A stretch of 32,000 nt of DNA, from the NCBI RefSeq assembly GCF_947498515.1, contig NZ_CANMKO010000010.1, positions 130,137 through 162,136 on the forward strand. The letters are read 5' to 3'. The first letter of the stretch is position 1. Every line of letters begins with the position of its first letter. The translations under genes and the position numbers were made by a program. Below the pieces are notes generated by a model. That model made no database searches and was not told the origin of the DNA. It saw only the letters and a list, made by a program, of their open reading frames with translations. Below, piece by piece: positions 3,862 to 24,757 of the stretch. Source of the DNA: an uncultured Pelagimonas sp. (GTDB lineage Bacteria > Pseudomonadota > Alphaproteobacteria > Rhodobacterales > Rhodobacteraceae).

Positions 3862-3862
3862 T

Positions 3863-6474: not shown

Positions 6475-6690
6475 GTGACAAAACCTTGACAAAAGGTTGA
6501 AGGAAAGTTGACGCACCCTATATCTGGCAGGTCACCGCAAAGCAAGGCAACGATATGTCGTAGTCAACACGTTTAAGCTATGCGTTAACGGAATGGGTGC
6601 TATGCATTTGCGGGGTATCCGAATCGGTTTGAATAGGTCATAACCGCCCTCACGCCGAAAAAGACAAGAGCAATAATTATAGGTCGAGAT

Positions 6691-7011: not shown

Positions 7012-7029
7012 ACGCGGATCAGACTGATG

Positions 7030-7062
7030 AAAAAAACGCGCCCTTTTGGGGCGCGTTTTTTG
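7030..7062. terminator. Bidirectional rho-independent terminator between convergent genes
   Basis: AAAAAAA-CGCGCCC-TTTTG-GGGCGCG-TTTTTT: a 7-bp GC stem flanked by an A-run and a T-run. Confidence 0.8.
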
Positions 7063-7115
7063 TTTATGGGTTCGATCTCCCTCAGAAAACCTTAAAGGGG
7101 GTTGCCCCCTAGAAC

Positions 7116-8300: not shown

Positions 8301-8372
8301 TCTTTGTACCACTCTTGCCTCAGGCCAGAGTGTAGCCCCGCCGCCTGATTCAGACAACAGATGCTGAAAAAG

Positions 8373-10663: not shown

Positions 10664-10737
10664 GGCGAGTTGGCGGAGTGGTTACGCAGCGGATTGCAAA
10701 TCCGTGTACACCGGTTCGATTCCGGTACTCGCCTCCA
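10664..10737 (+). tRNA. tRNA-Cys (anticodon GCA)
   Basis: Hand-folded cloverleaf. The 7-bp acceptor stem pairs GGCGAGT with ACTCGCC. The anticodon stem GCGGA/TCCGT carries loop TTGCAAA, and the T arm is ACCGG-TTCGATT-CCGGT. Discriminator is U73 and CCA is encoded. Confidence 0.9.
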
Positions 10738-10738
10738 A
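10724..10738 (+). repeat. attL core: 15-bp direct repeat GGTACTCGCCTCCAA (3' end of tRNA-Cys)
   Basis: Exact copy at 24743..24757. Confidence 0.8.
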
Positions 10739-10862
10739 ATATTCTATCAAGGTGCTGATTTTACTGATTATTTCAGCAAGACACCTAACCTCCCCGCAAC
10801 CTACCCCCCATCTTGTATGCATTTGATTGCAACAGATTGACACGGATCATGCTGCCTTTTCG

Positions 10863-13800
10863 TCACGAAATCTGGCCGCCAACTCCTTTGAATTTCTCGA
10901 CAAAGGCAGAAATCTTCTCGAAGACAGTCGCCTTCTTAGTCCGAAACTGTGGATTTAGTGGGCTCATTTTGGGGAGTATGGCATTTAAGTCGGCACCGTT
11001 TTCACTGGCAAATTCACGCTTTATGGAAGCCGAAATATAACGCTTTGCGGCGTCAGAGTTAAGGTGTTCTGACTTGATAAGCTCCTCTACTTCCTTGCGT
11101 TGCTCTGCTTGGGCAAATGAAAAAAATGCGTCAATCACGCCAGCCTTGTCATCAATCTGATCGAGATCAGTTCGGTTGATGTACTCCACTATCAGACTCT
11201 CTTTTGCCCTGTTGCCAAGACTGCCGCGAATGACACGGCGAGCATCTTCAATCAGATCTCCCTTGCTCTTCATTTTCTTGTTCTTGTCGAAAATTAGTTC
11301 AAGGATGTAATCGAGGTTGATCTCTTGCGATTTAAGAAGGTCGACCTCAAATACGACGTCATCCCACTCGATAGTGTTCTGTTCTTGCTCAACCGACGAC
11401 TTTTCTCGACGTATCCAATCGCGAATATCATTGTACGACGATCTATAATCTTGAACTGCTCTCTCTGAAGGTAGATCTATCGCCTCCAAGTCACGAAGGT
11501 CATCATCGTTCAGGTGGTGCTTTTGCTTAAACTCTTCGACGATATCCGCGTCTTTTGGGTCTAGGCCCCTATAGGCCTTCAGAGCTGAAAATTCATCATA
11601 GTTCCGAAGCACATTTTCGACCCTCAGATACTCACCGAAGAGCCTTGCAAACTCCTTCTTGTCTTCTTCTTTGACGATCTCGTCCGGATTGGGAAAGCGT
11701 TCGGTTAGCTCCTTAACAACATCTATGAACCCGCGTCGCGCCGCACCGGTATCCTGATCAACAAAACCATTCATGTACTCGTCGTAGCTCTTTTCCAGCA
11801 CGACGTTCTTTGTGTTCTTGTCACCGAACAACGTGATCGCATCAACTGTCGCTTGCTCAAGGTCCCTGAACGCTACAATATTGCCGAATGTCTTGGTCGC
11901 ATCGTAGATTCGGTTGGTCCTGGAGAATGCCTGCATCAAGCCATGGTAGCGGAGGTTTTTATCAACAAACAAGGTATTGAGCGTCGGAGCATCGAAGCCA
12001 GTAAGGAACATGCCGACGACAATTAACAGGTCGATATCCTTAGAGCGAACCCGGCTGGCAAGGTCGCGGTAGTAGTTCTGAAAACCACTGCTATCGACAC
12101 TGAAATTCGTCTTGAAAAAAGCATTATAGTCTTCGACTGTGGCGCTCAAAAATTCCTTCGCAGTGCTATTCATCGCTGAGATATCAAAGCTCTCGTCCTG
12201 AATGTCCCCGATTGCGTCTTGCTCTTCGTTGGCCGCAAACGAGAAGATCGTCGCGATCTTCAGCGGCTTTTCACTGTCTGCCTGCAGAGCGTTTAGGGTT
12301 TCGTAGTAGAGTTTGGCCGCATCTACACTACTGACGGCGAACATAGCGTTGAAGCCACTGCTTCCCGCATGCATTCGGTGGGTTTTCTGACGGAAATTGT
12401 TTAGAATGTACTGCGAAACTTCTCGAATACGTTCCGGATGAAGAAGCGCTTCTTTGCTCTCGGCAGCGCTGAGCTTCTTTTCATCTTGCTCCGTTTCAAT
12501 CGCCTTGAACTGAGGGCGTACGTCGTTGTAGTCGACCTTGAATTTCAGAACCTTTTCGTCGCGTATGGCGTCAGTAATCACATAGGAGTGCAGCTCACGG
12601 CCAAACACGCTGGCGGTCGTTTCAGCCCCTAGTGCATTCTCAGGAAAGATCGGCGTTCCGGTGAAGCCAAACTGATAAAATCGCTTGAACTTCTTTTTCA
12701 GGTTCTTCTGCGCCTCGCCAAACTGACTGCGATGGCATTCATCGAAGATGAAAACCACCTGCTGATCATAGACCGGCAAATCACCTTCCGATTTCATTAG
12801 GTTATTCAACTTCTGGATCGTCGTGACGATAATTCTATTATCGTCTTTGCCCAAATTGCGCTTCAACCCGGCGGTATTGTCAGAGCCGTTGACACTGTCA
12901 GGGGAAAATCGCTGGTATTCCTTCATGGTCTGGAAGTCGAGGTCCTTACGGTCCACGACGAAGAAGACCTTGTCGATGAATTTTAGGTCAGACGCTAACC
13001 GCGCAGCCTTGAAACTCGTCAGCGTTTTGCCGGAACCTGTGGTGTGCCAAATGAAACCACCGCTCTCCGGCTTCCTCCAGTTTTTGGCCTCATATGAGCT
13101 TTTGATCTTCCACAGAATGCGCTCAGTCGCTGCAATCTGGTAAGGGCGCATGATCAGCAACGTGTCGCTGACATCGAAAACCGAATACTGCAACAGAACG
13201 TTCAGCAGCGTGCGCTTCTGAAGGAAGGTCGCGGTGAAGTCCTTGAGATCTTTGATCAGTTCGTTGTCAGACTTCGCCCAATTCATGGTGAAGTCGAAGC
13301 TGTTCTTGTTGCGCTTGGTCGTGTTGGCGAAATACCGAGTGTCGGTGCCATTCGAAATCACGAAGAGCTGCAGGAATTTGAAGAGGGAGTGTTCAGTGTT
13401 GAAGCTTTCTTTGCTGTACCGGTGAATTTGGTTAAACGCCTCGCGAATGGCCACACCGCGCCGCTTTAGCTCGATCTGCACAAAGGGCAGACCATTGACC
13501 AAGATCGTCACATCATAGCGGTTGGCATGGGTGCCCACCTGCTCAAATTGTTTAATCACCTGCAGCTTGTTTCGCGCTTTGTTTTTCTTATCAAATAGAT
13601 AGATGTTCTGGATGCGTCCATCATCAAAGACAAAATCAAGGATGAAGTCATCATGAATTTTTCGCGCTTTGTCGGTAATACTGTCGCTGGGATTGTCCAG
13701 ATAGCTGTCATTGAACCGCTGCCATTCATCATCGGAGAAACGGACGTTGTTCAAAGCCTCTAGCTGTACCCGTACATTGGCCAGCATGGCTGCGGGGGTG

Positions 13801-13967
13801 GTCAGGGCGGGTAGGAATTCATAGCCTTGGTTCTGCAAATCCTGTACCAGTTCGCGCTCTAAATCATCTTCGCTTTGGTACTGCTCAGCAGCCTTCCAGT
13901 CCTTGGTGTATTTTTCAAGAACGATGTAATTAGGTGTCTCGGCAATCGGCGTTGTCTGCTCAGGCAT
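10863..13967 (-). CDS. hsdR: Type I restriction enzyme R subunit (IC family-like)
   Basis: PD-(D/E)xK nuclease motif D152...E166-x-K168 ([18 protein letters not shown]). SF2 helicase motif I TTGSGKT and motif II DECHRSQ. At 1034 aa it is comparable with EcoR124I HsdR. Its ATG overlaps the upstream stop by 8 nt. Confidence 0.93.
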
Positions 13968-15168
13968 TCTGTTCTTCCTGGCTAAAATATCCGTAGTTGT
14001 TAATGAGGTTCTTGAGCAAAATATCTATGTCTTGCTTCTGCTGATCTGTCGGCTCCGCCACTTCTTCAAACGAAAGCTCGCGGTGGCTGTAATGGTTGGT
14101 GAGTTTCTTCAAATAGTCCGCGCGGTCATCGGGGACCGATTTCAGCAACTTGGTCCAATGCTCGTAACCCAAGAAGTTTGCGGTCTTTTCGTAAAGGTTT
14201 CGAAGAAGGTTAAAATGAAACTTCTGGATGTTATCCTCAGAAATCGCCTTTTCTAGAATCTGCCTCAAATACAGATGATAGGAAAAGCTCTTGTTGGCCG
14301 CGCCCCTCTTTTCCTCAAGAACGAAAGACCCATCCTCCTTGCGCTCCAAGAGGTGGCCCGCTGGATTGGTGATCTCTTTGTGCAGAACGTTGTAAAAAAG
14401 TGGGTTGTGGGTCGTCAAAATGAACTTCACACCGGCACCGCCTTCAAAACGGCTGGAGTTGATCAGACCAGCCAAATCGAACGCCAGCTCTATCAGATGG
14501 TTTTCATCCAGAGAGCTTACCGGATCGTCGATAAAGACATACTGCAAGCCATCAAATTGATCATCTTCACGCTTGGTCTGGTCCGGTTCCTCCAAGATGC
14601 CAACCACCTCTTGCAGCAAGGTCAGGAAAACACTCCAAACAAAGTTGCTTTCTTCGCCTTTGGAAATCTTGATGTTGGTTTTTAGCTCGCCACCACCACC
14701 ATGTGAGAATTTCACTTCGGGATAGGTGGTTCGGTTTTCCCTTCTGCCTTGCTCGTTGGTGATCTGTACCACCTTTGGAGGGAACTCAGGCGTCAGCTTC
14801 TCATCCGTGTAGCGCCGGAAATTTTTGACAATCCCTTCATCCCCTTGAAAATTCAAAATCCAATCGGTGAAATCGTTCGGCTGGATGTCGATTTTGCGAA
14901 CTTCATCGTTATCCCGATCATTGTCCCAAACGAACAGGTCTTCGGTAAAGGCGCTGTAGTAAAGGATCTTGCGCCGAGTGAGTTCTTCCTCTTCACCATT
15001 CTCGGCCTTGGGCGCGACCAGATCTTTCACTGCACGGGACAGACGGGTTTTTCCGGTGCCGTTGAACGCATAGATCAGCTGCACCTTCTTGTCAGATTCG
15101 ACGAGCTTTTCTGCAACTGCCTTGATCTTGTCTTCTTGCATTTCTTGGGCTTCTACCTGCTCAGGCAT
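13960..15168 (-). CDS. prrC: PrrC-like ABC-type ATPase / anticodon nuclease (AAA_13-type)
   Basis: 402 aa, sited between hsdS and hsdR as in the E. coli prr locus. Walker A AFNGTGKT, signature-like ISKGEES, Walker B/D-loop [15 protein letters not shown], switch LTTHN. The C-terminal R323-x3-E327-x31-H359 has the same spacing as the reported EcoPrrC R320/E324/H356 triad. GAGGAGG lies upstream of the ATG. Confidence 0.72.
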
Positions 15169-16290
15169 CTATGCGACCTCCTCAGGTTTTGGGAAACTTA
15201 AGAGCAGATCGCGGTAGTATTCATATTGCTGCTGTCGCAACTTGATTTCGCGCGGCAGGCCCTCGCTGAGTGATGTAGTCAGCGTGTCGAACTTGTCGAG
15301 GATGGCAACGATGCGGGTTTGTTCTTCAAAAGAGGGAACCGGAATTTCTAGCTTCGATAAATCGGATTTATTGACAGCAGGAACACCCCCCTCTTTCTTA
15401 AGGGAGAGTAGCAACGCCGCCTTTGACTGAAAAAAATAGTATAGGTATTTATTGATCAAGAAGCTCTTATCCAGGGCTTGCAATTTGTAGCAGAGCGGAC
15501 CCAACCAAAATGGATCCCGCTGATACCCAACAAAGCCAATTCCTCCTTGCCCTCTAGAGGGCGTGGTGACTGTGTCGCCATCACAATTGCTAGCCGCTGC
15601 ATAACCTGATCGCGTGGTCCCTGCATTGATGTAGTCGAACTCGGTTGTCCTATCGAGAATTTCGGATGGCTTTTGCCCTGTTTTGATCTCGGTGATATCA
15701 CCCAAAATCTTCCATTCCACATCATCATCTTCAAAGCTCAAAAGCTGGTCGCGGTAATGGTTGTATTGTTGTTTGCGGGCCTTAAGCTCGGCTGTCAGCT
15801 CGGCTGTCAGCTCGGTGAAGCTGTCCAAAATCCGAACAATCTCTGCCTGTATCGCCAGCGATTTTTCTGGGTCTTCAGGGCATGGGACGGGGATCTCCAG
15901 CCTGTTCAGAATAGCTTGCGTTAGGCTAGGCCTTCCTGACCCAGTATCGAGCGCCATCAAGTCAATAGTCTTGATAAAGTGATACAGATACTTGGGAACC
16001 ACCTGACCCGTGTCGATATCTGTGTAGTAAATAGTGTCTACATTCCAAAATGGCTCTTCGACGTAAAAGATATTTGTGATCGAACCTTTTCTAGGAATTA
16101 GGACGGTGGGTCTATCATGCGAAAATGTATCAACGTACCCCATGATCCCGCCCGAACCGTAAACAGGGACATCACCTTCGTCCAGCTTTTTCCAATCCTT
16201 GCCGTGCTTGATTTTTGCAACTTTCTCTAACGGCAGCCATTCCACCGCAGCCCCATCCAGCAGCTTTTCCAGAAAGCCCAGATCGCTCAT
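15169..16290 (-). CDS. hsdS: Type I restriction-modification specificity subunit
   Basis: Two variable TRDs are separated by central conserved region [27 protein letters not shown]. The C-terminal conserved region is [24 protein letters not shown] overlap with hsdM. Confidence 0.9.
15785..15815 (-). repeat. 12-bp tandem repeat (about 2.6 copies) encoding (TAEL)n in the hsdS central conserved region
   Basis: Coding strand reads ACC GAG CTG ACA GCC GAG CTG ACA GCC GAG CTT, which translates to [11 protein letters not shown]. Confidence 0.9.
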
Positions 16291-17837
16291 GCCTCGATCT
16301 CCGCAACGATGGCATCGATGTCCGAACGTAGTTTGTTGATGTTGGCAACCGTTGTGACCAGCTCTGCATTCAGCTCGGTGATGTTGATTGCTTCGCGAGT
16401 GTCTTTAGGCTCCACATAGGCGCTGACCGACAGGTTGTAGTTGTTCGCGTCCGATGAGATTCTCTCGTAAGGTACGGTCTCGGCGACATGGGCCACGTTT
16501 TCTTTGCTGTCGAACAGATCGATGATCGCTTTAATGTGATCAGCATCCATGACGTTGTTGTTGGTTTTTTTGTCAAAGAACTGCTCGCCCGTTGCATCAA
16601 TGAACTGCACGGCAGTGTCTGTTTTGTTCTTAGCCAGCACCAGAATAGTCACCGCAATCGTCGTGCCGTAAAACAAGTTGGGCGCAAGCGCGATCACGGT
16701 TTCAACATAGTTGTTATCCACCAGATACTTGCGGATCTTTTGCTCTGCGCCGCCACGATAGAAAATACCCGGGAAGCAAACAATCGCCGCGCGGCCTTTG
16801 GCGGAAAGATAGCTGAGCGCGTGCAACACAAAGGCAAAATCCGCCTTGGATTTCGGGGCGAGCACGCCAGCGGGCGCAAAGCGTTCATCGTTGATCAAAG
16901 TCGGATCATCCGCCCCCACCCATTTCACCGAATAAGGCGGGTTAGACACGATGGCATCAAAGGGTTTGTCATCACCGAAATGAGGATCAATCAGGGTGTT
17001 GCCCAGCTGGATGTTGAACTTGTCATAGTTAATGTTGTGCAAGAACATATTCATGCGGGCTAGGTTGTAGGTGGTGTGGTTGATTTCCTGCCCGAAGAAA
17101 CCGTCTTCGACCACGTGATTTTTAAAGTGATCTTGGGCCTGCAACAGCAAAGAGCCTGAACCACAAGCAGGATCGTAAATTTTGTTGACCGTGGTTTGGC
17201 CGTGCATGGCAATCTGCGCGATCAGTTTGGACACATGGGTTGGGGTAAAGAACTCGCCCCCTGATTTGCCCGCATTGGCGGCGTAGTTCGAGATCAGGAA
17301 TTCATATGCATGGCCAAACATGTCTTCTTCGGTGTCATCAAAGTCCAAAGGCAGGCCTGCGACACCTTTGAGAACATCGCCCAAGCGCTTGTTTTTGTCT
17401 TTGACAGTGTTGCCAAGGCGGTTACTGGTGGTGTCGAAATCAGCAAACAGGCCTTTGATGTCTTCCTCAGACGGGTAACCGCTGGCCGATGCCTCAATCG
17501 CGGTGAAGATGGCTGCCAGATCGGTATTCAGGCTTTCATTGGTATTCGCCGCAGCGACCACGGTTGAAAACAGCTGGCTGGGATAGATGAAGTAGCCCTT
17601 GGTTTTAACCGCATCAATAACAACTTCGTCAGGAATGTCGGCGTCGGATATACTAGCATAGTTGACACTATCGTCACCCGCTTCGATATAGTTGGTAAAG
17701 TTCTCGCTGATGAACCGATAAAATAGAGCGCCAAGAACAAACTGTTTGAAGTCCCAACCATCGACGGCCCCGCGCACGTCGTTTGCGATCGCCCAGATTT
17801 GACGGTGTAATTCGTCGCGTTCTTGCTGGCCTGTCAT
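16287..17837 (-). CDS. hsdM: Type I restriction-modification N6-adenine DNA methyltransferase subunit
   Basis: SAM motif [12 protein letters not shown] and catalytic motif IV NPPY ([11 protein letters not shown]), with an HsdM N-terminal domain. ATGA overlaps with both neighbours. Confidence 0.93.
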
Positions 17838-18028
17838 TTCCCTGCCCCTTCTTGTTTTTGTTCTTGCTCAGCGATCCAGCGATCAATTTCGCTTTTGCGA
17901 AACCGCCATGCGCTGCCCACCTTGAAGCCCGGAACCTTGCCCTCTGACGCAAACCGGTATGCTGTTTTCTCAGCGATTTTGAGATACTCGGCGAGCTCTT
18001 TCACGGTCAAAATGTCGCCGCTGGCCAT
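17834..18028 (-). CDS. Small excisionase/MerR-type (HTH_17-like) DNA-binding protein, first gene of the R-M operon
   Basis: [46 protein letters not shown] is the typical excisionase-family HTH. GAGAGGA lies upstream. Its stop overlaps the hsdM ATG. Confidence 0.75.
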
Positions 18029-18057
18029 TTCGGAAATGTCCTCTCTGGGGGAAACAC

Positions 18058-18074
18058 GTTGAAACTAGTTGAAA
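18058..18074. promoter_or_regulatory. Candidate operator: GTTGAAA direct repeat at 10-bp spacing, containing palindrome AACTAGTT
   Basis: GTTGAAA at 18058-18064 and 18068-18074. It lies 30-46 nt upstream of the HTH gene start on the minus strand. Confidence 0.3.
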
Positions 18075-18192
18075 GGAGGAGAAGCAGCAAGCGTCCGCGT
18101 GATGGGGTCATCGTCGCACGTCATACATGGTAGACTGGCGAGAAACCAATGATTTCAGGACTTTGATGGTTATTGTAGAATAATGCAGAAGT

Positions 18193-18420
18193 TCACGACG
18201 CTTCCGGGAACAGACGCCTCACTGCTATCTCATTAATTGCCAAATCGAAGATTTCATAACAGTGGGCGGCGAGGTCCACACGGTCCTCGAACTCGTCAAT
18301 CAACACCATGCTGGGAAGCTCTTTAAGGCTCCCTGCGCGGCTGAGGACAACCTCGAAAGCCTCCAGCGCTTCGGGTCCATAACCTTCAAGGCTTGTCTCA
18401 TAGTCAAAAAGACTTTTCAT
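18193..18420 (-). CDS. Hypothetical small acidic protein (75 aa)
   Basis: ATG start, 16 D/E versus 6 K/R, no recognisable family. Confidence 0.5.
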   Translation of the reverse strand: MKSLFDYETSLEGYGPEALEAFEVVLSRAGSLKELPSMVLIDEFEDRVDLAAHCYEIFDLAINEIAVRRLFPEAS

Positions 18421-18488
18421 CTATTACTCTTCCTGCGCGAAATCTACGCCCCACTATAAACGTGACGCACAGCCCATAGCGGCGCTGA

Positions 18489-18851
18489 TTAGGGCTGATG
18501 CCCTCGCTGGATTTTGTCTTGAAACAAATCAGGGTGCTTCAACTCAATCGCACCCATTCCCTCATCCTCAATGACGCTGTACAGCAAGTCCACAGCTTGA
18601 AAGGGCGGAGACAAGGGAAGCCGCGCAGCGGTCAAGTTCTCTACCATGGCTCGTGTAAGCGTCGTTGCGCGCTCTACTGGGCTCTTCTTGGGATCCGCGA
18701 TTTCGTTCTCAGCTGTGATGCCATAGCAGGTCGCATGGGCAAGCCAGGCTGCGGCGCTCCCAGTTGTCAGACGGTCAAGAGGGGAGGCATTCTCGCTCAC
18801 GGCGAAAGCACGCAAACGAATAAAGGCGGCGAGGGTCGGGTTGTACGTCAT
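18489..18851 (-). CDS. Hypothetical protein (120 aa)
   Basis: ATG start, same strand as its neighbours and 17 nt after the upstream gene. Protein-like composition, no family recognised. Confidence 0.5.
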   Translation of the reverse strand: MTYNPTLAAFIRLRAFAVSENASPLDRLTTGSAAAWLAHATCYGITAENEIADPKKSPVERATTLTRAMVENLTAARLPLSPPFQAVDLLYSVIEDEGMGAIELKHPDLFQDKIQRGHQP

Positions 18852-18868
18852 GGCTAAATCCGTTTTGA

Positions 18869-19264
18869 TTACATCAGGCGAAGGGCTGCGAGGACACCCA
18901 AGAGGCCACCGGAAAACCCCGCGGAGAAAGCGACTAACGTTATCATTATTGTGAATTGCCGCGCGGACCTTGATGCCTTCTGCAATTCGCTCACCAGAGG
19001 AGAGGTCACAGTCGAAACCTTGGCTATGTGGGCCTTGAGATCAGCATCGATATGCACGGCCACACCCTTTTCGAGTTGCGTCTGAAGGTTCTGCAGGATT
19101 CGCCCAATTGCCCCCTCTTGCGATTTCATATGGCTGGTGGAGCTGGCCATCGCTTTGGAGATTTTATTCAAGGAGGCTTGCTGGTCATGAGCATTGTGCA
19201 GAAACCGGCGCAGATCGTGAAGGAGCAGGTCAGCCGGTTCGGCAGGATCTTTGAGATTTGTCAT
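18869..19264 (-). CDS. Hypothetical coiled-coil protein with C-terminal transmembrane helix (131 aa)
   Basis: C-terminal FTIMITLVAFSAGFSGGLLGVLAAL. Starts 13 nt after the relaxase stop. No clear SD. Confidence 0.5.
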   Translation of the reverse strand: MTNLKDPAEPADLLLHDLRRFLHNAHDQQASLNKISKAMASSTSHMKSQEGAIGRILQNLQTQLEKGVAVHIDADLKAHIAKVSTVTSPLVSELQKASRSARQFTIMITLVAFSAGFSGGLLGVLAALRLM

Positions 19265-19277
19265 AGTGTCATTTATC

Positions 19278-20975
19278 CTAGGGTTTCGGTGTTAGGCCGA
19301 CCGAGGGGGGTGAAATCTTTCGAGACAGAGGCCGACGGGGCCGTTGGAAAGGCATTAAAAGCGGTTGTTTGTGAGTGGGGGCGGATTGCTCTTGCTGAGC
19401 AGCAACTATGCCGGTTAGGCGTGCCATGGTTGCGCCCTTCTTCTGCAGGTGCCGACACCTTAGCTCTGCTTCAGCTTTTCTTCGGCGGCCTTCGCTAATT
19501 GCAAACTCTTCTGCAGTTGATCGTCCAGCACGCTGCAGCTCGCCTCTTCGCTGAGCAAGCCACGCAATGACTTGATAGACACGGCTTGAGAACGCATGAG
19601 CAAGCTTACGCAATCGAACAAGCAAGATATCTGTCTCCCAGTCCTGCTGGTCGAACGCGCTTCCAAGCCGTTCAATTCGACTGTTGATGCCTCGCAAGCC
19701 TTCACCAACCGCTCGACGCAAGTGAGCAAGTCGCGCTCTAAGGGCGTTAGGGTCGCCTTCATTCACCTCTCCATGATCTTGATGCAGTTGAGCGTCTTGC
19801 CCGCAATCTTGCAGCGGCTGAGCTTGACCCTGTCGGGGTCTAGTGTCATCCAGACCTGCCCCCTCTGCTCGATCTTGGTCAGGCCAAGTTCCGTAAACTC
19901 CGAACGTGTCAACAGCACCGTCCAGAGCCAACTCGCAGCCATCATCGAGGTAACCCCCATCAAGATCAGACCCGAGATCAGCAAGGGTGAGATCGCCAGC
20001 CAGTGCCGGATCGAACGAAGTTGCGTCTCGAAAATGTTCGCCATCTCGATCTGAAAGCTTCGGGTATCTCTTTCGATTGTAACCTGCGCGTTTCGCGCAA
20101 TTACTTTCAAATTGCGCCTGAAGTCCTTCTGTTGTGCAGCGATCAAGCCGATGTGCTCTTGGCGCATGGCCTCCAACTCCTCGTTCAACTTCTGGCTCAG
20201 ACGGATCTGTTTGCCAGCCCTCATTAAAAACCTCCCCTTTCATTCGCCAGCGCTCCCCGGTTTCAGGGTCCCTAACGGTCAAGTAAGCTTTGCCCAAACG
20301 TGGAAGGTCGAAGCCTGCATCATGAAGCGCCTCAAGCAAGCTATTGCGGTCGGTGATCAGGCCGACACTCACTAAGTCGAGGATCCACGCGTGCAATTCG
20401 TCGCGACCATGGGCGCGGATCGGGGCCTCAATGGTGTCGCGCACCTCCTGGGCGCGCTCTAACTCCATCGGATCGGCCCAACCGTGGCACCGGTTCATAA
20501 CGTCCCGCAGGCTGTCATAGGCGTCCTGGTAGCCGGGCGGCGCGATGTTGAAACTCTTACCTGTCGTCAGCTCCAGGCGCGGCGTGCAGAAATGCAGCTC
20601 GACCCGGCCTTCGTGGCGATGGCGGACCCAGAGCACCTCATATTGCTCAGGGTCCAGCCCCGCGAAGGCCAGACGCTCGAACTCGTCCATGACCTCGGCC
20701 TGTTGGTCTTCGGTCGGGTCGTCAGTGTCGGCAAAGCTGATCACGCCCGCGCGGTAGGTCCACTGATGGCGGCTGGCGTCGATCAGGGCCTCGGTGCGCT
20801 CGGGGTTGCCGCGCAGGACCTCGGGCAGTGGGTCGCGCGTGACGGTGACTGGCTGGCCATTGGCATCACGGATCAGGTCACGGTTGCCGTCATAGGCCAG
20901 CACGCGATCTGCCACGAGGTAACCGACCGGACCCGCGCCCGCGCCTTTGCCATTAGAGAAGAACTTGATCAGCAC
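19278..20975 (-). CDS. Relaxase/mobilization nuclease, MbeA (ColE1, HEN-motif)-like
   Basis: N-terminal candidate catalytic Tyr Y19 (GPVGYLV). Metal-binding motif H119-x6-E126-x-H128 (WVRHRHEGRVELHF) has the spacing of the MbeA H97/E104/N106 motif. The GTG start overlaps the mobC stop. The first 250 codons or so have very high GC3. The remaining 315 codons or so are open but have low GC3 (see findings). Confidence 0.8.
   Translation of the reverse strand: MLIKFFSNGKGAGAGPVGYLVADRVLAYDGNRDLIRDANGQPVTVTRDPLPEVLRGNPERTEALIDASRHQWTYRAGVISFADTDDPTEDQQAEVMDEFERLAFAGLDPEQYEVLWVRHRHEGRVELHFCTPRLELTTGKSFNIAPPGYQDAYDSLRDVMNRCHGWADPMELERAQEVRDTIEAPIRAHGRDELHAWILDLVSVGLITDRNSLLEALHDAGFDLPRLGKAYLTVRDPETGERWRMKGEVFNEGWQTDPSEPEVERGVGGHAPRAHRLDRCTTEGLQAQFESNCAKRAGYNRKRYPKLSDRDGEHFRDATSFDPALAGDLTLADLGSDLDGGYLDDGCELALDGAVDTFGVYGTWPDQDRAEGAGLDDTRPRQGQAQPLQDCGQDAQLHQDHGEVNEGDPNALRARLAHLRRAVGEGLRGINSRIERLGSAFDQQDWETDILLVRLRKLAHAFSSRVYQVIAWLAQRRGELQRAGRSTAEEFAISEGRRRKAEAELRCRHLQKKGATMARLTGIVAAQQEQSAPTHKQPLLMPFQRPRRPLSRKISPPSVGLTPKP
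19460..19762 (-). CDS. Second nested same-strand ORF inside the relaxase gene (100 aa, coiled coil); MbeD-like position
   Basis: Starts immediately after the stop of the 153-aa ORF (AGG TGA ATG), with GGAGAGG upstream. GC3 is about 70% in the sampled C-terminal 45 codons. Confidence 0.5.
   Translation of the reverse strand: MKATLTPLERDLLTCVERLVKACEASTVELNGLEARSTSRTGRQISCLFDCVSLLMRSQAVSIKSLRGLLSEEASCSVLDDQLQKSLQLAKAAEEKLKQS
19763..20224 (-). CDS. Nested same-strand ORF inside the relaxase gene (153 aa, coiled coil plus TM); MbeB-like position
   Basis: The ATG is preceded by GGGGAGG with a 6-nt spacer. GC3 is about 76% by hand count, versus about 40% for the relaxase frame over the same bases. 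Hydrophobic segment WLAISPLLISGLILMGVTSMMAASWLWTVLL. Confidence 0.6.
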   Translation of the reverse strand: MRAGKQIRLSQKLNEELEAMRQEHIGLIAAQQKDFRRNLKVIARNAQVTIERDTRSFQIEMANIFETQLRSIRHWLAISPLLISGLILMGVTSMMAASWLWTVLLTRSEFTELGLTKIEQRGQVWMTLDPDRVKLSRCKIAGKTLNCIKIMER

Positions 20976-21442
20976 CGCCGCACCTCATCGAGGAGTGCGT
21001 CAAGCTGGCGTTCAATCACCACGAGGTGACGCGCGAGGGCCAGCGTGTCGAGGTCCGTCCGCCCGATCTTCATGGCTTGATTCAGCCAACGGGCGATCTG
21101 GTTGAGGTTGCCACCGATGCGCCCGACGGCTAGCACAAAGGCCGGATCGACGCGCGGGATGGGCTTGCGGCGGCGCGCTTCGGTGAGGCCAAGCGCCTCG
21201 CGCAAAAGCGTCGAGGCAGGCAGGCCAGCAGCCTCGGCCTTGGCGCGCAGTTGGGCCTTCTCGGACGCGGTGCAGCGGAAGACGAAGGTCTCGGTCAGCA
21301 GCTCTTTGGTGGGGGCGTTGCCCACGCCGGTGGGGTTCGAAGGGGAGGCTTGCCGCCACTCGCAAGGTCCCGTGTCATCGGCGCAGCCGTATGACATGGG
21401 TCGCCTTGCTGATGGCGCTTTGGTCGCTCTCGTGGTGCTCAT
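20969..21442 (-). CDS. mobC: MobC-type relaxosome accessory protein (RHH plus MobC domain)
   Basis: FVFRCTASEKAQLRAKAEAAGL (RHH-like) and GRIGGNLNQIARWLN (MobC signature). Start set at the ATG at 21442, which forms an ATGA overlap with the upstream gene. The ORF-track extension to 21658 lies inside the upstream gene. Confidence 0.8.
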   Translation of the reverse strand: MSTTRATKAPSARRPMSYGCADDTGPCEWRQASPSNPTGVGNAPTKELLTETFVFRCTASEKAQLRAKAEAAGLPASTLLREALGLTEARRRKPIPRVDPAFVLAVGRIGGNLNQIARWLNQAMKIGRTDLDTLALARHLVVIERQLDALLDEVRRC

Positions 21443-22329
21443 ATTTTGAGACCCGCCGCACGGATTTGCGCCTTGGTCACGAGCTTGGAAGCCAAGAGCG
21501 CGTCGATCTGGCTGGGTGTGATGAGGCGGCAAAGTGCATGTTTTTCGGCAATCCAATTCGCCAATCCGGCCAGCATCTCGGCTTCCTTTGCTTTTCTCTC
21601 CTCTCGGCCTTTGGTGATGTCCCCGACGTAGGCACGCCAGCGCTCCGATTTGAACCAATTGTCCGAAAAACAGACCTTCGAGCGGGTAAAGTCCGCGCTT
21701 TCGGTGGCGTAGGCTTTCACAGCATCCATGAAGTCTTTGGGGCTGACACCTTCGTCCAACGCGGCCCTGATCTTCCTCAGACAGTCCGCCTTCCCGCGCT
21801 GACGGTCGCTCGGATAGACAGCCAAGACTTTATCAGCCAATTCATCCTCCACCGCCACGCGCTCGCGCATGGGAGGTTTATGGATGGTTTTAGGGTGGTT
21901 TGGGGGGCGCGGTGACCCCAGAACCTCGGTCACTCCGCCTCCCATTCTGGGTTCAGTCAGGACGGGGCCCACCGAGGATTCCATCTCAGTATCGAGCCCA
22001 GTGATCGGTTGAAGCGTTCTTACTCTTCCAAGATCGATCTGGTAAACGACCGTGAAACCATTCTTGCATCTCCGCTTACCAGTCTCGACCAAAATGCCTT
22101 CTTGCAAGAAGGCCCGGATAGTTCGTTTGACCGTCGTCTCGCCAAGCTCGGTATGCTGACGGATCGTCCCCTTCGAGCACCAAATGTCAGAGCCATCATC
22201 CGAGGCCTTGTCCGCAAGGAACATGATGATCTGCTTTCGCGGCGCACTCCCGAACTTCCTGGCAGTGCAGGCCTTTTCCACTCGCCAGCTCATCGGACTA
22301 CTGGGAGCGACCCCAACTTGGCGAGGCAT
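21439..22329 (-). CDS. Winged-helix DNA-binding protein of unknown role (296 aa)
   Basis: N-terminal wHTH-like KQIIMFLADKASDDGSDIWCSKGTIRQHTELGETTVKRTIRAFLQEGILV. The C-terminal domain is unrecognised. Translationally coupled to mobC. Confidence 0.6.
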   Translation of the reverse strand: MPRQVGVAPSSPMSWRVEKACTARKFGSAPRKQIIMFLADKASDDGSDIWCSKGTIRQHTELGETTVKRTIRAFLQEGILVETGKRRCKNGFTVVYQIDLGRVRTLQPITGLDTEMESSVGPVLTEPRMGGGVTEVLGSPRPPNHPKTIHKPPMRERVAVEDELADKVLAVYPSDRQRGKADCLRKIRAALDEGVSPKDFMDAVKAYATESADFTRSKVCFSDNWFKSERWRAYVGDITKGREERKAKEAEMLAGLANWIAEKHALCRLITPSQIDALLASKLVTKAQIRAAGLKI

Positions 22330-22744: not shown

Positions 22745-23335
22745 CTATGCCTGATTTAACAGAAGCAGTAGGTCAATTTGCGAAAAAGTGTTCCTCTTGT
22801 CCCTGATATCCCTTTCGCGCCGCTCCCAAATCGCCCTTATACCATTGGCTGAATTAGGCTTTTTGCCCAAATTCCGATTTGCTTGAGCGACAATCTCATA
22901 GGCGAAGAAAAAACCACTGCTTACAGTTTCGGAGCGCGGAACCCCTCTTTCTTCGAGCTCGTTAACGATCAAATGGATCGTCCTGTCGCGCTCGAAATTC
23001 TCTCCGGGAAATGCTCTTCGGGATCTCCGATTACGTTTCGGCTTCGGTAACTTACCGGCTAAGTATTTCCCCAGCCATTCCTCCATAAGCTTGGGTACCG
23101 GCTGAGCTGTTCGCACCAAATGCGCAATTGTCAGCTGTACGGCCTCATAGGACAAAGGCTCTGTTGATGCGGTGACGAGGAGCGACTGCAGCGATGCACT
23201 ATCTCCCGACTGAATGGTGTGGCGATTGAACAGATCCATAATCTCAACTTGACTGTATTGTTGCTCGAAATCCAGCAACGCATCAATTGCGTACTTCAGT
23301 GCTTCAAACTCTCCAAACGTGCTAGTTTCCTGCAA
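22745..23335 (-). CDS. Hypothetical protein (up to 196 aa)
   Basis: The ORF overlaps the integrase stop by 14 nt. Its start is uncertain (TTG at 23335 or ATG at 23239). No family recognised. Confidence 0.45.
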   Translation of the reverse strand: MQETSTFGEFEALKYAIDALLDFEQQYSQVEIMDLFNRHTIQSGDSASLQSLLVTASTEPLSYEAVQLTIAHLVRTAQPVPKLMEEWLGKYLAGKLPKPKRNRRSRRAFPGENFERDRTIHLIVNELEERGVPRSETVSSGFFFAYEIVAQANRNLGKKPNSANGIRAIWERRERDIRDKRNTFSQIDLLLLLNQA

Positions 23336-24587
23336 GAAAGCCTCCCCAATCTGTCATCATCGCTCGCCTCTTTTCGATGAGATCCGAGCGGGCATATGCG
23401 CGCTCGACCTTAGTGCCAAGAAAATGCCAAAGCGCGGCTTCAGATAGCGTCCACTCGTAAGAAGTACGTTCGGAAGCCCAATCCTTGAATGTCGAGCGAA
23501 AACCGTGGGCTACGGCCACTTTGCCCGTTTGGGCATCTAAGAAACCACTGCGTTCGCATTTTACATCTTCAGTATGGACGGATTTCAAAACCTTACCGAT
23601 TGAAGCGTCGGACAACGCTCCACCACGCGGCGCAGCGAACACGTAAGGTGAGTCCGAGCGTCTCGGAACTTGATCCAAAACTATTTGCATCTGTGGCGTA
23701 ACGGGAACTCGGCGCGCGCCCATCTTCCTTGTTACCTTCGAAGACTTCCTTAGTGGCTGTACTGTCCAGACTTCCTCCGTAGTGTCGAGCTCGTCCCAAG
23801 TCATAAACCGAACCGCTCCCGTGCGTGTTGCAGTTAGGAGTTGAAAAGATAGTGCGAGCTTTGAAATGCCCGACCTCCTTTGTATTGCGGCCCAACACCT
23901 CTGCGCGTCCTTCAACTGTACTGCCGGGTAGTTACTTTCATCCGAACCGTCGGCCGGACGCGGCAAAATCTTTGAGAGCTCATTCGACCAGACTGCTGGG
24001 TTGTCGCCAACAAAATACTCTTTGGCCTTGCAGAAATCCAACGTCTCGCTGAGCTTTCGGCGCAATTTGTCGGCTGTCGGTCGCTTTTCCTCCCAAATGG
24101 GGACGAGCACCTCAACGATGTCTTCTCTGGTTAGCTCCGCAACGGACTTATTGCCCAAGATTGGAAGCGCATATTCATCAACACTATTTCGCCAATTCTT
24201 CCGATAGCTCGTATCCTTCGCTAGCATTTTTTCTTTTATCGGAACGAACTCTTCGAAGGCTTTTTGAAATGCCACACACCGCTTCGTTTTTGCGACAAGC
24301 TCTTTCCGGAGGTGCCTCCTCTCCTCCACCGGATCGACGCCATTCCTGATCGTTGACTTCATCTCAGACGCAGAAACGCGAGCATTTTTGAGTGACACTT
24401 CCGGGAAGCCGCCCAAACCAATTTCACGGCGCCTTCCACCCACAATCGTGCGAAGTAGCCATGAACGCGCTCCTGTGCATGAAACTTGAAGGCATAGACC
24501 GGAAACCCCTCCAACCGCATGCAGTCCTGGAGCATTTAATCTTTTCACTTCGATCGCCGATAATTCTTTAGCCAGTTTCGGCATCAT
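23322..24587 (-). CDS. int: Tyrosine recombinase/integrase (P4-type with DUF4102-like arm-binding N-terminus)
   Basis: N-terminal LSAIEVKRL...GLHAVGGVSGLCLQV...SWLLR. Catalytic residues R (LLTATRTGAV), HxxR (HGFRSTFKDW) and Y (ERAYARSD). Confidence 0.9.
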   Translation of the reverse strand: MMPKLAKELSAIEVKRLNAPGLHAVGGVSGLCLQVSCTGARSWLLRTIVGGRRREIGLGGFPEVSLKNARVSASEMKSTIRNGVDPVEERRHLRKELVAKTKRCVAFQKAFEEFVPIKEKMLAKDTSYRKNWRNSVDEYALPILGNKSVAELTREDIVEVLVPIWEEKRPTADKLRRKLSETLDFCKAKEYFVGDNPAVWSNELSKILPRPADGSDESNYPAVQLKDAQRCWAAIQRRSGISKLALSFQLLTATRTGAVRFMTWDELDTTEEVWTVQPLRKSSKVTRKMGARRVPVTPQMQIVLDQVPRRSDSPYVFAAPRGGALSDASIGKVLKSVHTEDVKCERSGFLDAQTGKVAVAHGFRSTFKDWASERTSYEWTLSEAALWHFLGTKVERAYARSDLIEKRRAMMTDWGGFLAGN

Positions 24588-24742: not shown

Positions 24743-24757
24743 GGTACTCGCCTCCAA
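24743..24757 (+). repeat. attR core: second copy of GGTACTCGCCTCCAA
   Basis: Exact match to the last 14 nt of tRNA-Cys plus 1 nt, located 156 bp beyond the integrase start. Confidence 0.8.

What the first reader, a model, noticed from the sequence alone, without database searches (positions are those of the whole stretch)
13960..15168. PrrC-like anticodon nuclease gene wedged between hsdS and hsdR: a prr-type suicide/backup defence locus on a marine-type alphaproteobacterial mobile element
The gene order HTH-hsdM-hsdS-X-hsdR reproduces the E. coli prrA(hsdM)-prrB(hsdS)-prrC-prrD(hsdR) arrangement. X is 402 aa; EcoPrrC is about 396 aa. Its N-terminal half is an ABC-type NTPase, with A-x4-GKT at aa 34-41, [22 protein letters not shown] and LTTHN. 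Its C-terminal region has R323, E327 and H359 at exactly the spacing I recall for the EcoPrrC ACNase triad R320/E324/H356. All five genes are translationally coupled (ATGA, ATGA, TAGATG and an 8-nt overlap), which fits a stoichiometric complex in which the R-M enzyme keeps the nuclease latent. The host R-M looks type IC (see the hsdS and hsdR motifs), the family PrrC is known to associate with. The activating phage signal, the tRNA target and any phage repair countermeasure in this lineage are unknown.
Basis: partly seen in the sequence, partly recalled or inferred. Interest (0 to 1): 0.75.

Follow-up and report, generated by a model that had tools for sequence, protein, structure and literature searches.

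The report
PrrC anticodon nuclease in type-IC restriction operon
This is an ordinary member of the long-known PrrC "backup" defence, a tRNA-cutting suicide enzyme embedded in a type I DNA restriction operon, here carried on a small mobile island in a marine Roseobacter-group bacterium.

Summary
The 402-aa ORF (13960-15168, minus strand) matches the PADLOC PrrC profile end to end (E = 8e-128). It is 51% identical over its full length to the E. coli anticodon nuclease. It lies between hsdS and hsdR of a type IC restriction-modification operon; HsdR is 75% identical to the E. coli prr-locus HsdR and matches EcoR124I HsdR over its full length. All 80 related genomic loci examined keep hsdS-prrC-hsdR in this order.

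One correction: the catalytic histidine equivalent to EcoPrrC His356 is H362, not H359. A 3-residue insertion shifts the register, and H359 falls in a variable hydrophobic column.

The protein keeps 29 of EcoPrrC's 33 experimentally essential residues. Its alphaproteobacterial clade replaces Arg349 with Lys (K355) and alters the substrate loop (GDSN to GAAN). The tRNA target and the strength of activity therefore remain open.

The operon is cargo of a ~14-kb integrase/relaxase island in tRNA-Cys, bounded by 15-nt direct repeats. Identical protein sequences are already public; RefSeq lists a 393-aa short-start form from uncultured Pelagimonas as "AAA family ATPase".

Verdict: new member of a known kind; low interest.

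The parts
13960..15168 (-). prrC: 402-aa anticodon-nuclease homologue. The N-terminal part is an ABC/Rad50-type NTPase domain (about aa 1-268); the C-terminal part is the nuclease domain (about aa 269-402).
   Evidence: PADLOC PrrC PDLC02360, E = 8.3e-128, residues 7-401. Pfam AAA_13, E = 3e-17. 51% identity over the full length to E. coli anticodon nuclease WP_032251799. A GAGGAGG Shine-Dalgarno sequence lies 8 nt before the ATG at 15168, and the N-terminus is conserved in P0002/P0003, so the 402-aa start is favoured over RefSeq's 393-aa call.
15046..15069 (-). Walker A / P-loop, AFNGTGKT (aa 34-41). K40 and T41 correspond to EcoPrrC K46 and T47.
   Evidence: K in 101 of 103 and T in 100 of 103 family representatives.
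14647..14667 (-). ABC signature (C-loop), ISKGEES (aa 168-174). K167 and K170 correspond to EcoPrrC K168 and K171.
14497..14541 (-). Walker B plus D-loop, [15 protein letters not shown] (aa 210-224). D214/D215 correspond to Eco D215/D216, and D221 to D222.
   Evidence: D214 and D215 are invariant in 103 of 103 representatives.
14404..14418 (-). H-loop (switch), LTTHN (aa 251-255). H254 corresponds to EcoPrrC H251.
   Evidence: H in 103 of 103 representatives.
14278..14310 (-). Equivalent of the EcoPrrC 'LARP' substrate-recognition stretch: [11 protein letters not shown] (aa 287-297) against Eco KYGDSNKSFSY. Asp287/Ser288 are replaced by Ala290/Ala291.
   Evidence: The role of Asp287/Ser288 in tRNA-Lys recognition is taken from PMC1484252 and PMC1950546.
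14188..14202 (-). RNLYE (aa 323-327). Catalytic R323 and E327 correspond to EcoPrrC R320 and E324.
   Evidence: R in 101 of 103 and E in 99 of 103 representatives.
14083..14106 (-). KLTNHYSH (aa 355-362), the HEPN-type R-x6-H motif with Lys in place of Arg. H362 corresponds to EcoPrrC H356 (true triad His), K355 to Eco R349, and H359 to Eco F353 (not the triad His).
   Evidence: the H362 column is H in 100 of 103; the H359 column is L/I/V/F; the K355 column is R 67 / K 22 / Q 6.
10863..13967 (-). hsdR (prrD equivalent), type IC restriction subunit, 1034 aa. It overlaps prrC by 8 nt.
   Evidence: TIGR00348, E = 6e-203. Pfam EcoR124_C, T1R_D3-like, SWI2_SNF2 and HSDR_N. 75% identity to the E. 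coli prr-locus HsdR. 1756 bits to EcoR124I HsdR, PDB 2w00.
15169..16290 (-). hsdS (prrB equivalent), specificity subunit, 373 aa, with the central [11 protein letters not shown] repeat. Its stop codon abuts the prrC ATG.
   Evidence: Pfam Methylase_S, E = 1e-47, two TRD stretches. PADLOC Specificity_I, E = 2e-113. 12-nt tandem repeat at 15784-15823 (family D1).
16287..17837 (-). hsdM (prrA equivalent), N6-adenine methyltransferase subunit, 516 aa.
   Evidence: TIGR00497, E = 2e-185. Pfam N6_Mtase, E = 2e-112, and HsdM_N.
17834..18028 (-). 64-aa HTH_17 (excisionase/MerR-like) gene, overlapping hsdM by ATGA.
   Evidence: Pfam HTH_17, E = 1.5e-17. A homologue sits upstream of hsdM in 13 of 80 related loci.
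10664..10737 (+). tRNA-Cys(GCA), the integration target. Its 3' end forms attL (10724-10738).
   Evidence: ARAGORN. 15-nt exact repeat GGTACTCGCCTCCAA (family D10).
24743..24757 (+). attR: the second copy of the 15-nt repeat, 156 nt beyond the integrase gene. The bases that follow it (TAAAATCAATGA) are the ones that directly follow tRNA-Cys in related marine contigs.
23322..24587 (-). Tyrosine integrase of the island, 421 aa.
   Evidence: Pfam Arm-DNA-bind_3, Phage_int_M and Phage_integrase.
19278..22329 (-). Mobilisation and replication module: MobA/VirD2-type relaxase (19278..20975), NikA/MobC-like protein (20969..21658) and a replication-initiator-like protein (21439..22329).
   Evidence: Pfam Relaxase, NikA-like and MobC. 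phrog_270 replication initiation protein, E = 3e-16. 75-78% DNA identity to Ruegeria and Neotabrizicola plasmid mob genes.

Best explanation
The gene encodes a PrrC-family anticodon nuclease, the 'second-strike' partner of a type IC restriction-modification enzyme.

Shown here:
- A five-gene, translationally coupled operon, HTH-hsdM-hsdS-prrC-hsdR.
- A PrrC protein with an intact ABC/Rad50-type NTPase domain and a C-terminal nuclease domain carrying R323, E327 and H362.
- Location of the operon as cargo on a ~14-kb integrative mobilisable island in tRNA-Cys of a Roseobacter-group (Pelagimonas-like) bacterium.

Inferred from the E. coli prototype (Kaufmann and Shuman laboratories):
- PrrC is made together with HsdM/S/R and is held latent by association with the R-M complex.
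- When a phage anti-restriction factor disables the R-M enzyme, and nucleotide pools change (GTP hydrolysis, dTTP binding at the NTPase domain), the nuclease is released.
- It then cuts a host tRNA in the anticodon loop, leaving 2',3'-cyclic phosphate and 5'-OH ends. This stops late phage translation and aborts the infection.
- The most likely target is tRNA-Lys(UUU) or a closely related tRNA, because 8 of the 11 substrate-loop residues are kept. The two residues implicated in wobble-base recognition (Asp287, Ser288) are both Ala here, so the exact substrate preference probably differs.
For: - PADLOC PrrC profile: E = 8.3e-128, covering residues 7-401.
- 51% identity and E = 4e-139 to an E. 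coli 'anticodon nuclease'. That protein's numbering matches the published K46, K168, K171, D222, H251, R320, E324 and H356.
- Named homologues include 'anticodon nuclease PrrC [Ruegeria sp. R11]' and others.
- In 103 family representatives clustered at 50% identity, the columns of R323, E327 and H362 are 98%, 96% and 97% conserved. All NTPase catalytic residues are present.
- 29 of the 33 residues shown essential in EcoPrrC are identical, and a further one (D223E) is a tolerated change.
- 80 of 80 related loci from many phyla keep hsdS-prrC-hsdR on one strand.
- HsdR is type IC.
- The structure model places the N-domain with Rad50/SMC/RecN/PtuA ABC heads.
- The junctions are ATGA / ATGA / TAGATG / 8-nt overlap, the last shared with E. 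coli.
Against: - No biochemical data exist for this protein or its clade.
- Three EcoPrrC-essential nuclease-domain positions differ: H297 to Y300, K299 to R302 and R349 to K355. K299R and R349K each abolished EcoPrrC toxicity.
- Some natural PrrCs (Neisseria, Xanthomonas) were non-toxic when expressed alone. Activity or its triggers can therefore not be assumed identical.
- The isolated C-domain model has no significant structural match in the PDB. The catalytic-His loop is modelled with pLDDT below 50. I could therefore not show that R323, E327 and H362 converge in space.
- No Stp-like activator is known for roseophages.
Confidence: 0.85

Rival explanations
1. It is a PrrC-family member with a remodelled active site and substrate loop, a clade-specific variant. 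It would cleave a different tRNA (or a differently modified tRNA-Lys), or respond to a different trigger, than the E. coli prototype. This refines the main explanation rather than replacing it.
For: The window's clade (about 20 proteins, 58-89% identical) jointly carries [10 protein letters not shown] in place of GDSNKSFSYH, and YLKKLTNH[YF]SHR in place of YLxRIIxFxSH. That amounts to D287A/S288A + R349K + F353H. Asp287/Ser288 are the residues implicated in tRNA-Lys wobble recognition. R349K kills EcoPrrC, yet Lys occupies this column in 22 of 103 family representatives. The family was proposed from the start to have diverse specificities.
Against: 8 of 11 LARP residues, including the essential Phe and Tyr, are kept. 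LARP conservation did not predict toxicity in the Shuman study. The co-variation may simply reflect shared ancestry.
Confidence: 0.3
2. It is a catalytically attenuated or inactive PrrC that persists as a structural or regulatory accessory of the type IC enzyme and does not act as a suicide RNase.
For: K299R and R349K substitutions individually abolish EcoPrrC toxicity. NmePrrC and XcaPrrC are non-toxic in yeast and in E. coli.
Against: The R-E-H triad and all other essential histidines (H298, H318, H362) and asparagines are intact. The variant motif is conserved across proteins only about 60% identical, which indicates purifying selection on this region. The ORF is intact and tightly coupled within the operon. 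The columns of K299 and H297 are variable across the whole family.
Confidence: 0.07
3. It is not PrrC but another AAA_13/ABC-ATPase defence protein, such as RloC, Septu PtuA, Gabija GajA, PARIS AriA or Lamassu LmuB, that happens to sit in an R-M operon.
For: The Pfam hit is only the generic AAA_13. RefSeq calls the protein 'AAA family ATPase'. Foldseek lists PtuA and GajA among the ABC-head matches.
Against: The PrrC profile scores 424 bits. The next best scores are 50 bits for PDC-S06, 17.5 for AriA and 12 for LmuB. The length of 402 aa is like PrrC (396 aa); the roughly 800-aa size of RloC, with its coiled-coil and zinc-hook insert, is from my own recall, not checked here. The PrrC-specific 'PrrC box' ([15 protein letters not shown]) and the C-domain align with EcoPrrC.
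Confidence: 0.02

Closest known systems
EcoPrrC / EcoprrI (the prrA-prrB-prrC-prrD locus of E. coli CT196 and related strains)
   Same: - Same four-gene order and strand.
- Same 8-nt prrC/hsdR overlap.
- Similar size (402 against 396 aa).
- 51% identity end to end.
- All NTPase motifs, the PrrC box and the R-E-H triad are conserved.
- The partner R-M enzyme is type IC, with HsdR 75% identical.
   Different: - A 15-residue insertion in the N-domain (around aa 137-151) and a 3-residue insertion before the catalytic His.
- Arg349 to Lys355, Lys299 to Arg302, His297 to Tyr300 and Asp287/Ser288 to Ala/Ala.
- An extra upstream HTH_17 gene coupled to hsdM.
- The locus lies on a tRNA-Cys integrative mobilisable island in a marine alphaproteobacterium.
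Roseobacter-group PrrC proteins with the alternative C-domain (e.g. 'anticodon nuclease PrrC [Ruegeria sp. R11]', P0071, 462 aa)
   Same: The N-terminal NTPase domain is 66-82% identical to the window protein, and the R-E-H residues are present.
   Different: The C-domain is only 31-42% identical, with a different substrate loop (NDSPFSYH) and a canonical R-x6-H (SRIVNLSSH). Many carry an Ala-rich insertion of about 60 aa after the H-loop. This looks like exchange of the nuclease domain between lineages.
RloC (wobble-nucleotide-excising anticodon nuclease)
   Same: An ABC-type NTPase followed by a HEPN-type nuclease domain with the same Arg-Glu-His residues (literature).
   Different: RloC is about twice as long and has a Rad50-like coiled-coil/zinc-hook insert (size from my own recall). 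It is rarely linked to R-M genes and excises the wobble nucleotide (PMC3458546 abstract). The window protein has none of these architectural features.
PARIS (AriA/AriB) and other 'R-M guardian' systems
   Same: Conceptually the same strategy: an ABC ATPase senses anti-restriction and releases a tRNA-directed nuclease (review PMC12707154).
   Different: PARIS uses a separate TOPRIM nuclease (AriB) and is not embedded in an hsd operon. The AriA profile scores only 17.5 bits here.

Membership tests
PrrC anticodon nuclease family | Full-length match to a PrrC-specific profile | tested here: met
   PADLOC PDLC02360 PrrC: E = 8.3e-128, 424.5 bits, protein residues 7-401 on profile positions 15-353 of 372.
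PrrC anticodon nuclease family | N-terminal ABC-type NTPase motifs: Walker A, Walker B, D-loop, ABC signature and linchpin His | tested here: met
   K40/T41, K167/K170/E172, D214/D215, S218/S219/D221 and H254 all align with the essential EcoPrrC residues and lie in near-invariant family columns. The model's N-domain matches Rad50/SMC heads.
PrrC anticodon nuclease family | 'PrrC box' (EcoPrrC residues 68-94), unique to the family | tested here: met
   [17 protein letters not shown] aligns with Eco ILYYNAFTEDLFYWDND. Y70, A73, T75-F79, W81 and N83 are invariant in 72 sequences. The definition is from PMC1484252.
PrrC anticodon nuclease family | C-terminal Arg-Glu-His catalytic triad (Eco R320/E324/H356) | tested here: met
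R323, E327 and H362 align with the triad.
PrrC anticodon nuclease family | Genetic linkage: the gene is embedded between hsdS and hsdR of a type IC R-M operon | tested here: met
   Window gene order. The same order in the annotated E. coli locus and in 80 of 80 related loci.
PrrC anticodon nuclease family | All 33 residues found essential for EcoPrrC toxicity are conserved | tested here: inconclusive
   29 are identical and D223 to E is tolerated. H297 to Y, K299 to R and R349 to K differ; K299R and R349K were inactive in EcoPrrC. These three columns vary across the natural family (K in 22 of 103 at the R349 column), so they are not family-defining.
PrrC anticodon nuclease family | tRNA-Lys recognition stretch (LARP, Eco 284-294), present only in the tRNA-Lys-specific subset | tested here: inconclusive
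   [11 protein letters not shown] against KYGDSNKSFSY: 8 of 11 residues are identical, and Asp287/Ser288 are both replaced by Ala. The target tRNA cannot be deduced from this.
PrrC anticodon nuclease family | Anticodon-loop cleavage of tRNA; latency imposed by the R-M enzyme; activation by an anti-restriction factor plus GTP/dTTP | not testable with these tools
   Requires expression, tRNA northern blot or tRNA-seq, and pull-downs.
HEPN superfamily RNase domain (Anantharaman et al. 2013) | R-x4-6-H catalytic motif | tested here: inconclusive
   The motif reads K355-x6-H362. The His is conserved and the Arg is replaced by Lys. Sixty-seven of 103 PrrC representatives have Arg here and 22 have Lys.
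HEPN superfamily RNase domain (Anantharaman et al. 2013) | All-alpha HEPN fold | tested here: inconclusive
Type IC restriction-modification (EcoR124I / EcoprrI family) | HsdR with the EcoR124-type C-terminal domain and full-length similarity to EcoR124I HsdR | tested here: met
   PF12008 EcoR124_C, E = 6e-68. 1756 bits to PDB 2w00 over residues 2-1033. 75% identity to the E. coli prr-locus HsdR.
Type IC restriction-modification (EcoR124I / EcoprrI family) | HsdS central conserved region with tandem TAEL repeats (a type IC hallmark; from my own knowledge of EcoR124I and EcoR124II) | tested here: met
   The HsdS sequence contains [11 protein letters not shown]. The corresponding 12-nt tandem DNA repeat lies at 15784-15823 (family D1).
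Integrative mobilisable element (IME) at a tRNA gene | Tyrosine integrase, relaxase and accessory mobilisation protein, and direct repeats of which one is the tRNA 3' end | tested here: met
   Integrase, relaxase and NikA/MobC. tRNA-Cys. 15-nt exact repeats 14,019 bp apart. G+C of 47-51% inside against 52-62% outside. Related Rep-Mob modules lie next to tRNA-Cys 3' halves in 5 metagenome contigs. A strict empty site with the same right flank was not found.
RloC | A protein of about 800 aa with a Rad50-like coiled-coil and CXXC zinc hook inserted in the ABC domain; usually not R-M linked | tested here: not met
   The window protein is 402 aa with no long coiled-coil insert in the model, and it is embedded in an hsd operon.

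The most novel reading that the evidence does not exclude
The window protein represents a distinct alphaproteobacterial PrrC clade. In it the HEPN Arg is naturally Lys (K-x6-H, with an extra His at -3), and the wobble-recognition residues Asp287/Ser288 are both Ala. This clade could have a re-wired active site and cleave a tRNA other than the mnm5s2U-modified tRNA-Lys, or it could need a trigger from marine roseophages unrelated to T4 Stp. Neighbouring Roseobacter lineages keep nearly the same NTPase domain but carry a very different nuclease domain. Together these would point to modular swapping of tRNA-targeting 'warheads' on a constant R-M-docking module.
Probability: 0.25. Interest if true: 0.4.

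Novelty: new member of a known kind. Interest (0 to 1): 0.18.

Why it matters
It matters little beyond annotation.

- The prr system has been known since the late 1980s and appears in current reviews as the textbook "R-M guardian".
- Relatives occur in more than 550 species genomes, always in this gene order.
- The practical value is a corrected annotation. RefSeq lists this protein as a generic "AAA family ATPase" with a start codon 9 residues too short.
- The locus is also a clean example of a complete type IC + PrrC module travelling as cargo on a small tRNA-Cys-targeting mobilisable island in marine Roseobacteraceae.
- The natural R349K / D287A / S288A variant clade would be a convenient test case for what sets PrrC's catalytic requirements and tRNA specificity. 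No PrrC structure has been solved.

Tried and rejected
- NCBIfam has no model that hits the protein, which explains the generic RefSeq name. This is not evidence against PrrC.
- A sequence search of the PDB found no solved PrrC relative.
- The exact-sequence contig look-up returned nothing. Identity to an NCBI record was obtained from the cluster look-up instead.
- Foldseek with the whole model only recovers the ABC head.
- An isolated C-domain model gave no significant PDB match, so the HEPN fold could not be confirmed structurally.
- The promoter/terminator scan of the operon found fewer sites than shuffled controls and says nothing about transcription units.
- The empty-site search found the predicted junction string in 44 marine contigs. 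None carried the window's right-flank genes. Some are att sites of related elements rather than unoccupied sites. They support tRNA-Cys targeting but are not a strict empty-site proof.
- I tried to retrieve Neisseria PrrC to see which residue it has at the Arg349 position. The Neisseria gonorrhoeae type IC locus that I fetched has no prrC at all.
- The idea that H359 is catalytic was rejected on alignment and conservation.
Full report
**Observation**

The window holds a 402-aa ORF at 13960..15168 on the minus strand. AFNGTGKT is at residues 34-41, ISKGEES at 168-174, [15 protein letters not shown] at 210-224 and LTTHN at 251-255. R323, E327 and H359 are all present.

- 16287..17837 is HsdM (TIGR00497, E = 2e-185).
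- 15169..16290 is HsdS (Methylase_S, two target-recognition stretches).
- 10863..13967 is HsdR (TIGR00348, E = 6e-203).
- A 64-aa HTH_17 protein is encoded at 17834..18028.

The four junctions read ATGA, ATGA, TAGATG and ATGCCTGA, the last being an 8-nt overlap.

**What it is**

The PADLOC PrrC profile matches residues 7-401 with E = 8.3e-128 (424 bits). The next-best defence family scores 50 bits. Pfam sees only the generic AAA_13 domain and NCBIfam has no matching model. That explains why RefSeq lists this protein, from uncultured Pelagimonas (WP_299937613.1), as "AAA family ATPase" with a start codon nine residues downstream. The ATG at 15168 has a GAGGAGG Shine-Dalgarno sequence 8 nt upstream, and close homologues conserve the N-terminal extension. 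I therefore keep the 402-aa start.

A word-indexed search of 5.8 billion proteins returned 8000 relatives, the cap on the number scored. Those with names are called "anticodon nuclease", "anticodon nuclease PrrC" or "wobble nucleotide-excising tRNase". An exhaustive search of 1.84 billion cluster representatives found 144 clusters at E ≤ 1e-30.

**Comparison with the prototype**

A distant DNA search of complete E. coli genomes found six loci annotated "anticodon nuclease". One of them, in E. coli strain B1, shows hsdM-hsdS-anticodon nuclease-hsdR, with an 8-nt overlap between the last two genes. The E. coli protein is 396 aa. It carries K46, K168, K171, D222, H251, Y294, R320, E324 and H356 at exactly the published positions, so it serves as EcoPrrC for numbering.

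BLASTP gives 51% identity over the whole length (E = 4e-139), including the C-terminal nuclease domain. R320 and E324 align with R323 and E327. The window protein then has three extra residues (K343-S344-V345), so His356 aligns with H362.

An alignment with 103 near-full-length representatives confirms this:
- the R323 column is Arg in 101 of 103;
- the E327 column is Glu in 99 of 103;
- the H362 column is His in 100 of 103;
- the H359 column is Leu/Ile/Val/Phe.

**How complete the catalytic machinery is**

Meineke et al. (PMC3025547) list 33 EcoPrrC residues whose alanine substitution abolishes toxicity.
- The window protein is identical at 29 of them, including all 21 other NTPase-domain positions.
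- It has the tolerated D223E change.
- It differs at three nuclease-domain positions: H297 to Y300, K299 to R302 and R349 to K355.

K299R and R349K each inactivated EcoPrrC. Arg349 is the Arg of the HEPN R-x4-6-H motif. These columns are variable in nature, however. The R349 column is R 67 / K 22 / Q 6, and the K299 column is mostly Leu/Lys/Ile.

Within the window's own clade (about 20 proteins, 58-89% identical, mostly alphaproteobacterial) the motif YLKKLTNH[YF]SHR is well conserved. It co-occurs with [10 protein letters not shown] in place of the E. coli GDSNKSFSYH. Asp287 and Ser288, the residues implicated in tRNA-Lys wobble-base recognition, are thus both Ala. I read this as a conserved clade-specific variant rather than decay. 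It also means that neither the exact substrate nor the activity level can be read off the sequence. Two natural PrrCs (Neisseria, Xanthomonas) were non-toxic when expressed alone.

**Structure**

An AlphaFold2 model of the whole protein has mean pLDDT 79 and pTM 0.75. Foldseek places its N-domain with Rad50, SMC, RecN and defence ABC ATPases such as PtuA and GajA. This agrees with the literature description of PrrC as an SbcC/Rad50-like ABC NTPase.

**The partner R-M system**

- HsdR carries the EcoR124_C domain.
- It matches EcoR124I HsdR (PDB 2w00) over residues 2-1033 at 1756 bits.
- It is 75% identical to the HsdR of the E. coli prr locus.
- HsdS contains [11 protein letters not shown], encoded by a 12-nt tandem repeat. 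This is the type IC hallmark.

PrrC (51% identity) has diverged far more than HsdR (75%) between the same two loci.

**Conservation of the arrangement**

A scan of one genome per species found at least 553 loci encoding relatives. In all 80 loci fetched, from Proteobacteria, Firmicutes, Bacteroidota, Actinobacteria, Spirochaetes, Planctomycetes and others, prrC lies between hsdS and hsdR on the same strand. hsdM is visible in 74 of them, and an HTH homologue lies upstream in 13.

About 15 loci have an extra gene between prrC and hsdR (RhuM or a YhcG/DUF1016 PDDEXK protein). Others have Fic/DOC or Bro-N genes between hsdM and hsdS, as noted by Anantharaman et al.. The window has the minimal form. 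A Neisseria gonorrhoeae type IC locus with HsdR 73% identical has no prrC, so prrC is an optional insert in this R-M family.

**Mobile-element context**

tRNA-Cys(GCA) lies at 10664..10737. Its last 14 nt plus one (GGTACTCGCCTCCAA) recur exactly at 24743-24757, 156 nt beyond a tyrosine integrase gene (23322..24587).

Between the repeats lie the prr/hsd operon, three small unknown ORFs, a MobA/VirD2-type relaxase, a NikA/MobC-like protein and a replication-initiator-like protein. G+C is 47-51% across the hsd/prrC part of the island, against 52-62% in the flanks. The mob genes are 75-78% identical in DNA to Ruegeria and Neotabrizicola plasmids.

In 44 marine metagenome contigs, tRNA-Cys or its 3' half is directly followed by TAAAATCAATGA, the sequence that in the window follows attR. 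At least 20 of these keep the TolC-PCMT-tRNA-Cys synteny of the window's left flank. Five have Rep-MobC-relaxase modules beside a 45-48-nt tRNA-Cys 3' half. One of these (L115) is a complete ~9.6-kb related island without hsd or prrC.

This supports a family of tRNA-Cys-targeting mobilisable islands with variable cargo. No contig had the window's own right flank, so a strict empty site was not shown.

**Mechanism**

The anatomy described above is shown. The following steps are inferred from the E. coli system.
- PrrC is co-translated with HsdMSR and kept latent in the complex.
- A phage anti-restriction factor, with GTP hydrolysis and dTTP binding at the NTPase domain, releases the nuclease.
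- The nuclease cuts a tRNA anticodon loop and aborts the infection.

I put 0.85 on PrrC-family membership with this general logic, and about 0.5 on tRNA-Lys(UUU) as the actual target.

**Verdict**

This is a correct identification of a well-known system and a new member of a known kind. Homologues in related roseobacters are already named PrrC. The protein sequence is already in public databases, and a 393-aa short-start form is in RefSeq. Interest is low. The only mildly unusual points are the clade-specific K-x6-H / GAAN variant and the apparent swapping of nuclease domains among Roseobacter PrrCs.

Noticed in passing
Proteins P0015, P0024, P0033, P0037, P0040, P0042, P0050, P0056, P0071, P0075, P0083 and P0113 (relatives of window 13960-15168): A group of Roseobacter PrrCs has an N-domain 66-82% identical to the window protein but a C-domain only 31-42% identical, in the seven measured (P0015, P0040, P0042, P0050, P0056, P0071, P0075; 407-462 aa). 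The loop differs (NDSPFSYH) and the R-x6-H is canonical. The longer ones (457-475 aa) carry an Ala-rich insertion of about 60 aa after the H-loop. This looks like exchange of the nuclease or specificity domain on a constant NTPase module.
   Followed up: partly
window 15784-15823 (within hsdS): A 12-nt tandem repeat encodes the [11 protein letters not shown] central spacer of HsdS. In type IC enzymes the copy number of this repeat sets the spacer length of the recognition sequence (from my own knowledge of EcoR124I and EcoR124II). It is therefore a potential specificity switch.
   Followed up: no
window 15157-15168 and 13956-13967 (minus strand): prrC and hsdR begin with the same 12 nucleotides, ATGCCTGAGCAG (both proteins start MPEQ). 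I do not know whether this is chance or a shared translation-initiation context.
   Followed up: no
window 15142-15168: RefSeq (WP_299937613.1, uncultured Pelagimonas) starts the protein at Met10 (393 aa) and names it 'AAA family ATPase'. The upstream ATG has a GAGGAGG Shine-Dalgarno sequence and abuts the hsdS stop codon, so the 402-aa form is more likely. No NCBIfam model exists for PrrC.
   Followed up: yes
window 10738-24757: A ~14-kb integrative mobilisable island in tRNA-Cys, bounded by the 15-nt repeat GGTACTCGCCTCCAA. It contains an integrase, a relaxase, NikA/MobC and a Rep-like protein. Several of its ORFs have no family hit: 18193..18420, 18489..18851, 18869..19264 and 22745..23335.
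   Followed up: partly
L115 (metagenome contig Ga0316205_10005889), 207-9922; also L103, L110, L113 and L125: Related Rep-MobC-relaxase modules lie next to 45-48-nt copies of the tRNA-Cys 3' half. L115 appears to be a complete ~9.6-kb island with different cargo, no hsd/prrC and no detectable homologue of this integrase. This would make a family of tRNA-Cys-targeting elements with variable cargo.
   Followed up: partly
L016, L020, L023, L044, L047 and L055 (prrC-hsdR gap); L024, L026, L039, L053 and L063 (hsdM-hsdS gap): Many prr loci in other phyla carry an additional gene inside the operon. RhuM or YhcG/DUF1016 PDDEXK nuclease lies between prrC and hsdR. Fic/DOC or Bro-N lies between hsdM and hsdS, and the unscanned L026 and L039 gap ORFs resemble the YhcG and RhuM proteins by eye. 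The window locus lacks these.
   Followed up: partly
L126 (Neisseria gonorrhoeae NZ_CP119140.1), 59-7284: A type IC hsdM-hsdS-hsdR locus with HsdR 73% identical to the window's has no prrC; only about 240 nt separate hsdS and hsdR. The record is a 2.17-Mb chromosome filed as a plasmid in PLSDB.
   Followed up: yes
window 10863-13967 against 13960-15168: Between this marine alphaproteobacterium and E. coli, HsdR is 75% identical but PrrC only 51%. The nuclease evolves much faster than its restriction partner, and the whole module is clearly horizontally spread.
   Followed up: partly
window 7116-8357 (minus strand): A 413-aa ORF with an extremely acidic (Asp/Glu-rich), low-complexity central region lies in the chromosomal left flank, upstream of a TolC-like gene. 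It was not examined.
   Followed up: no
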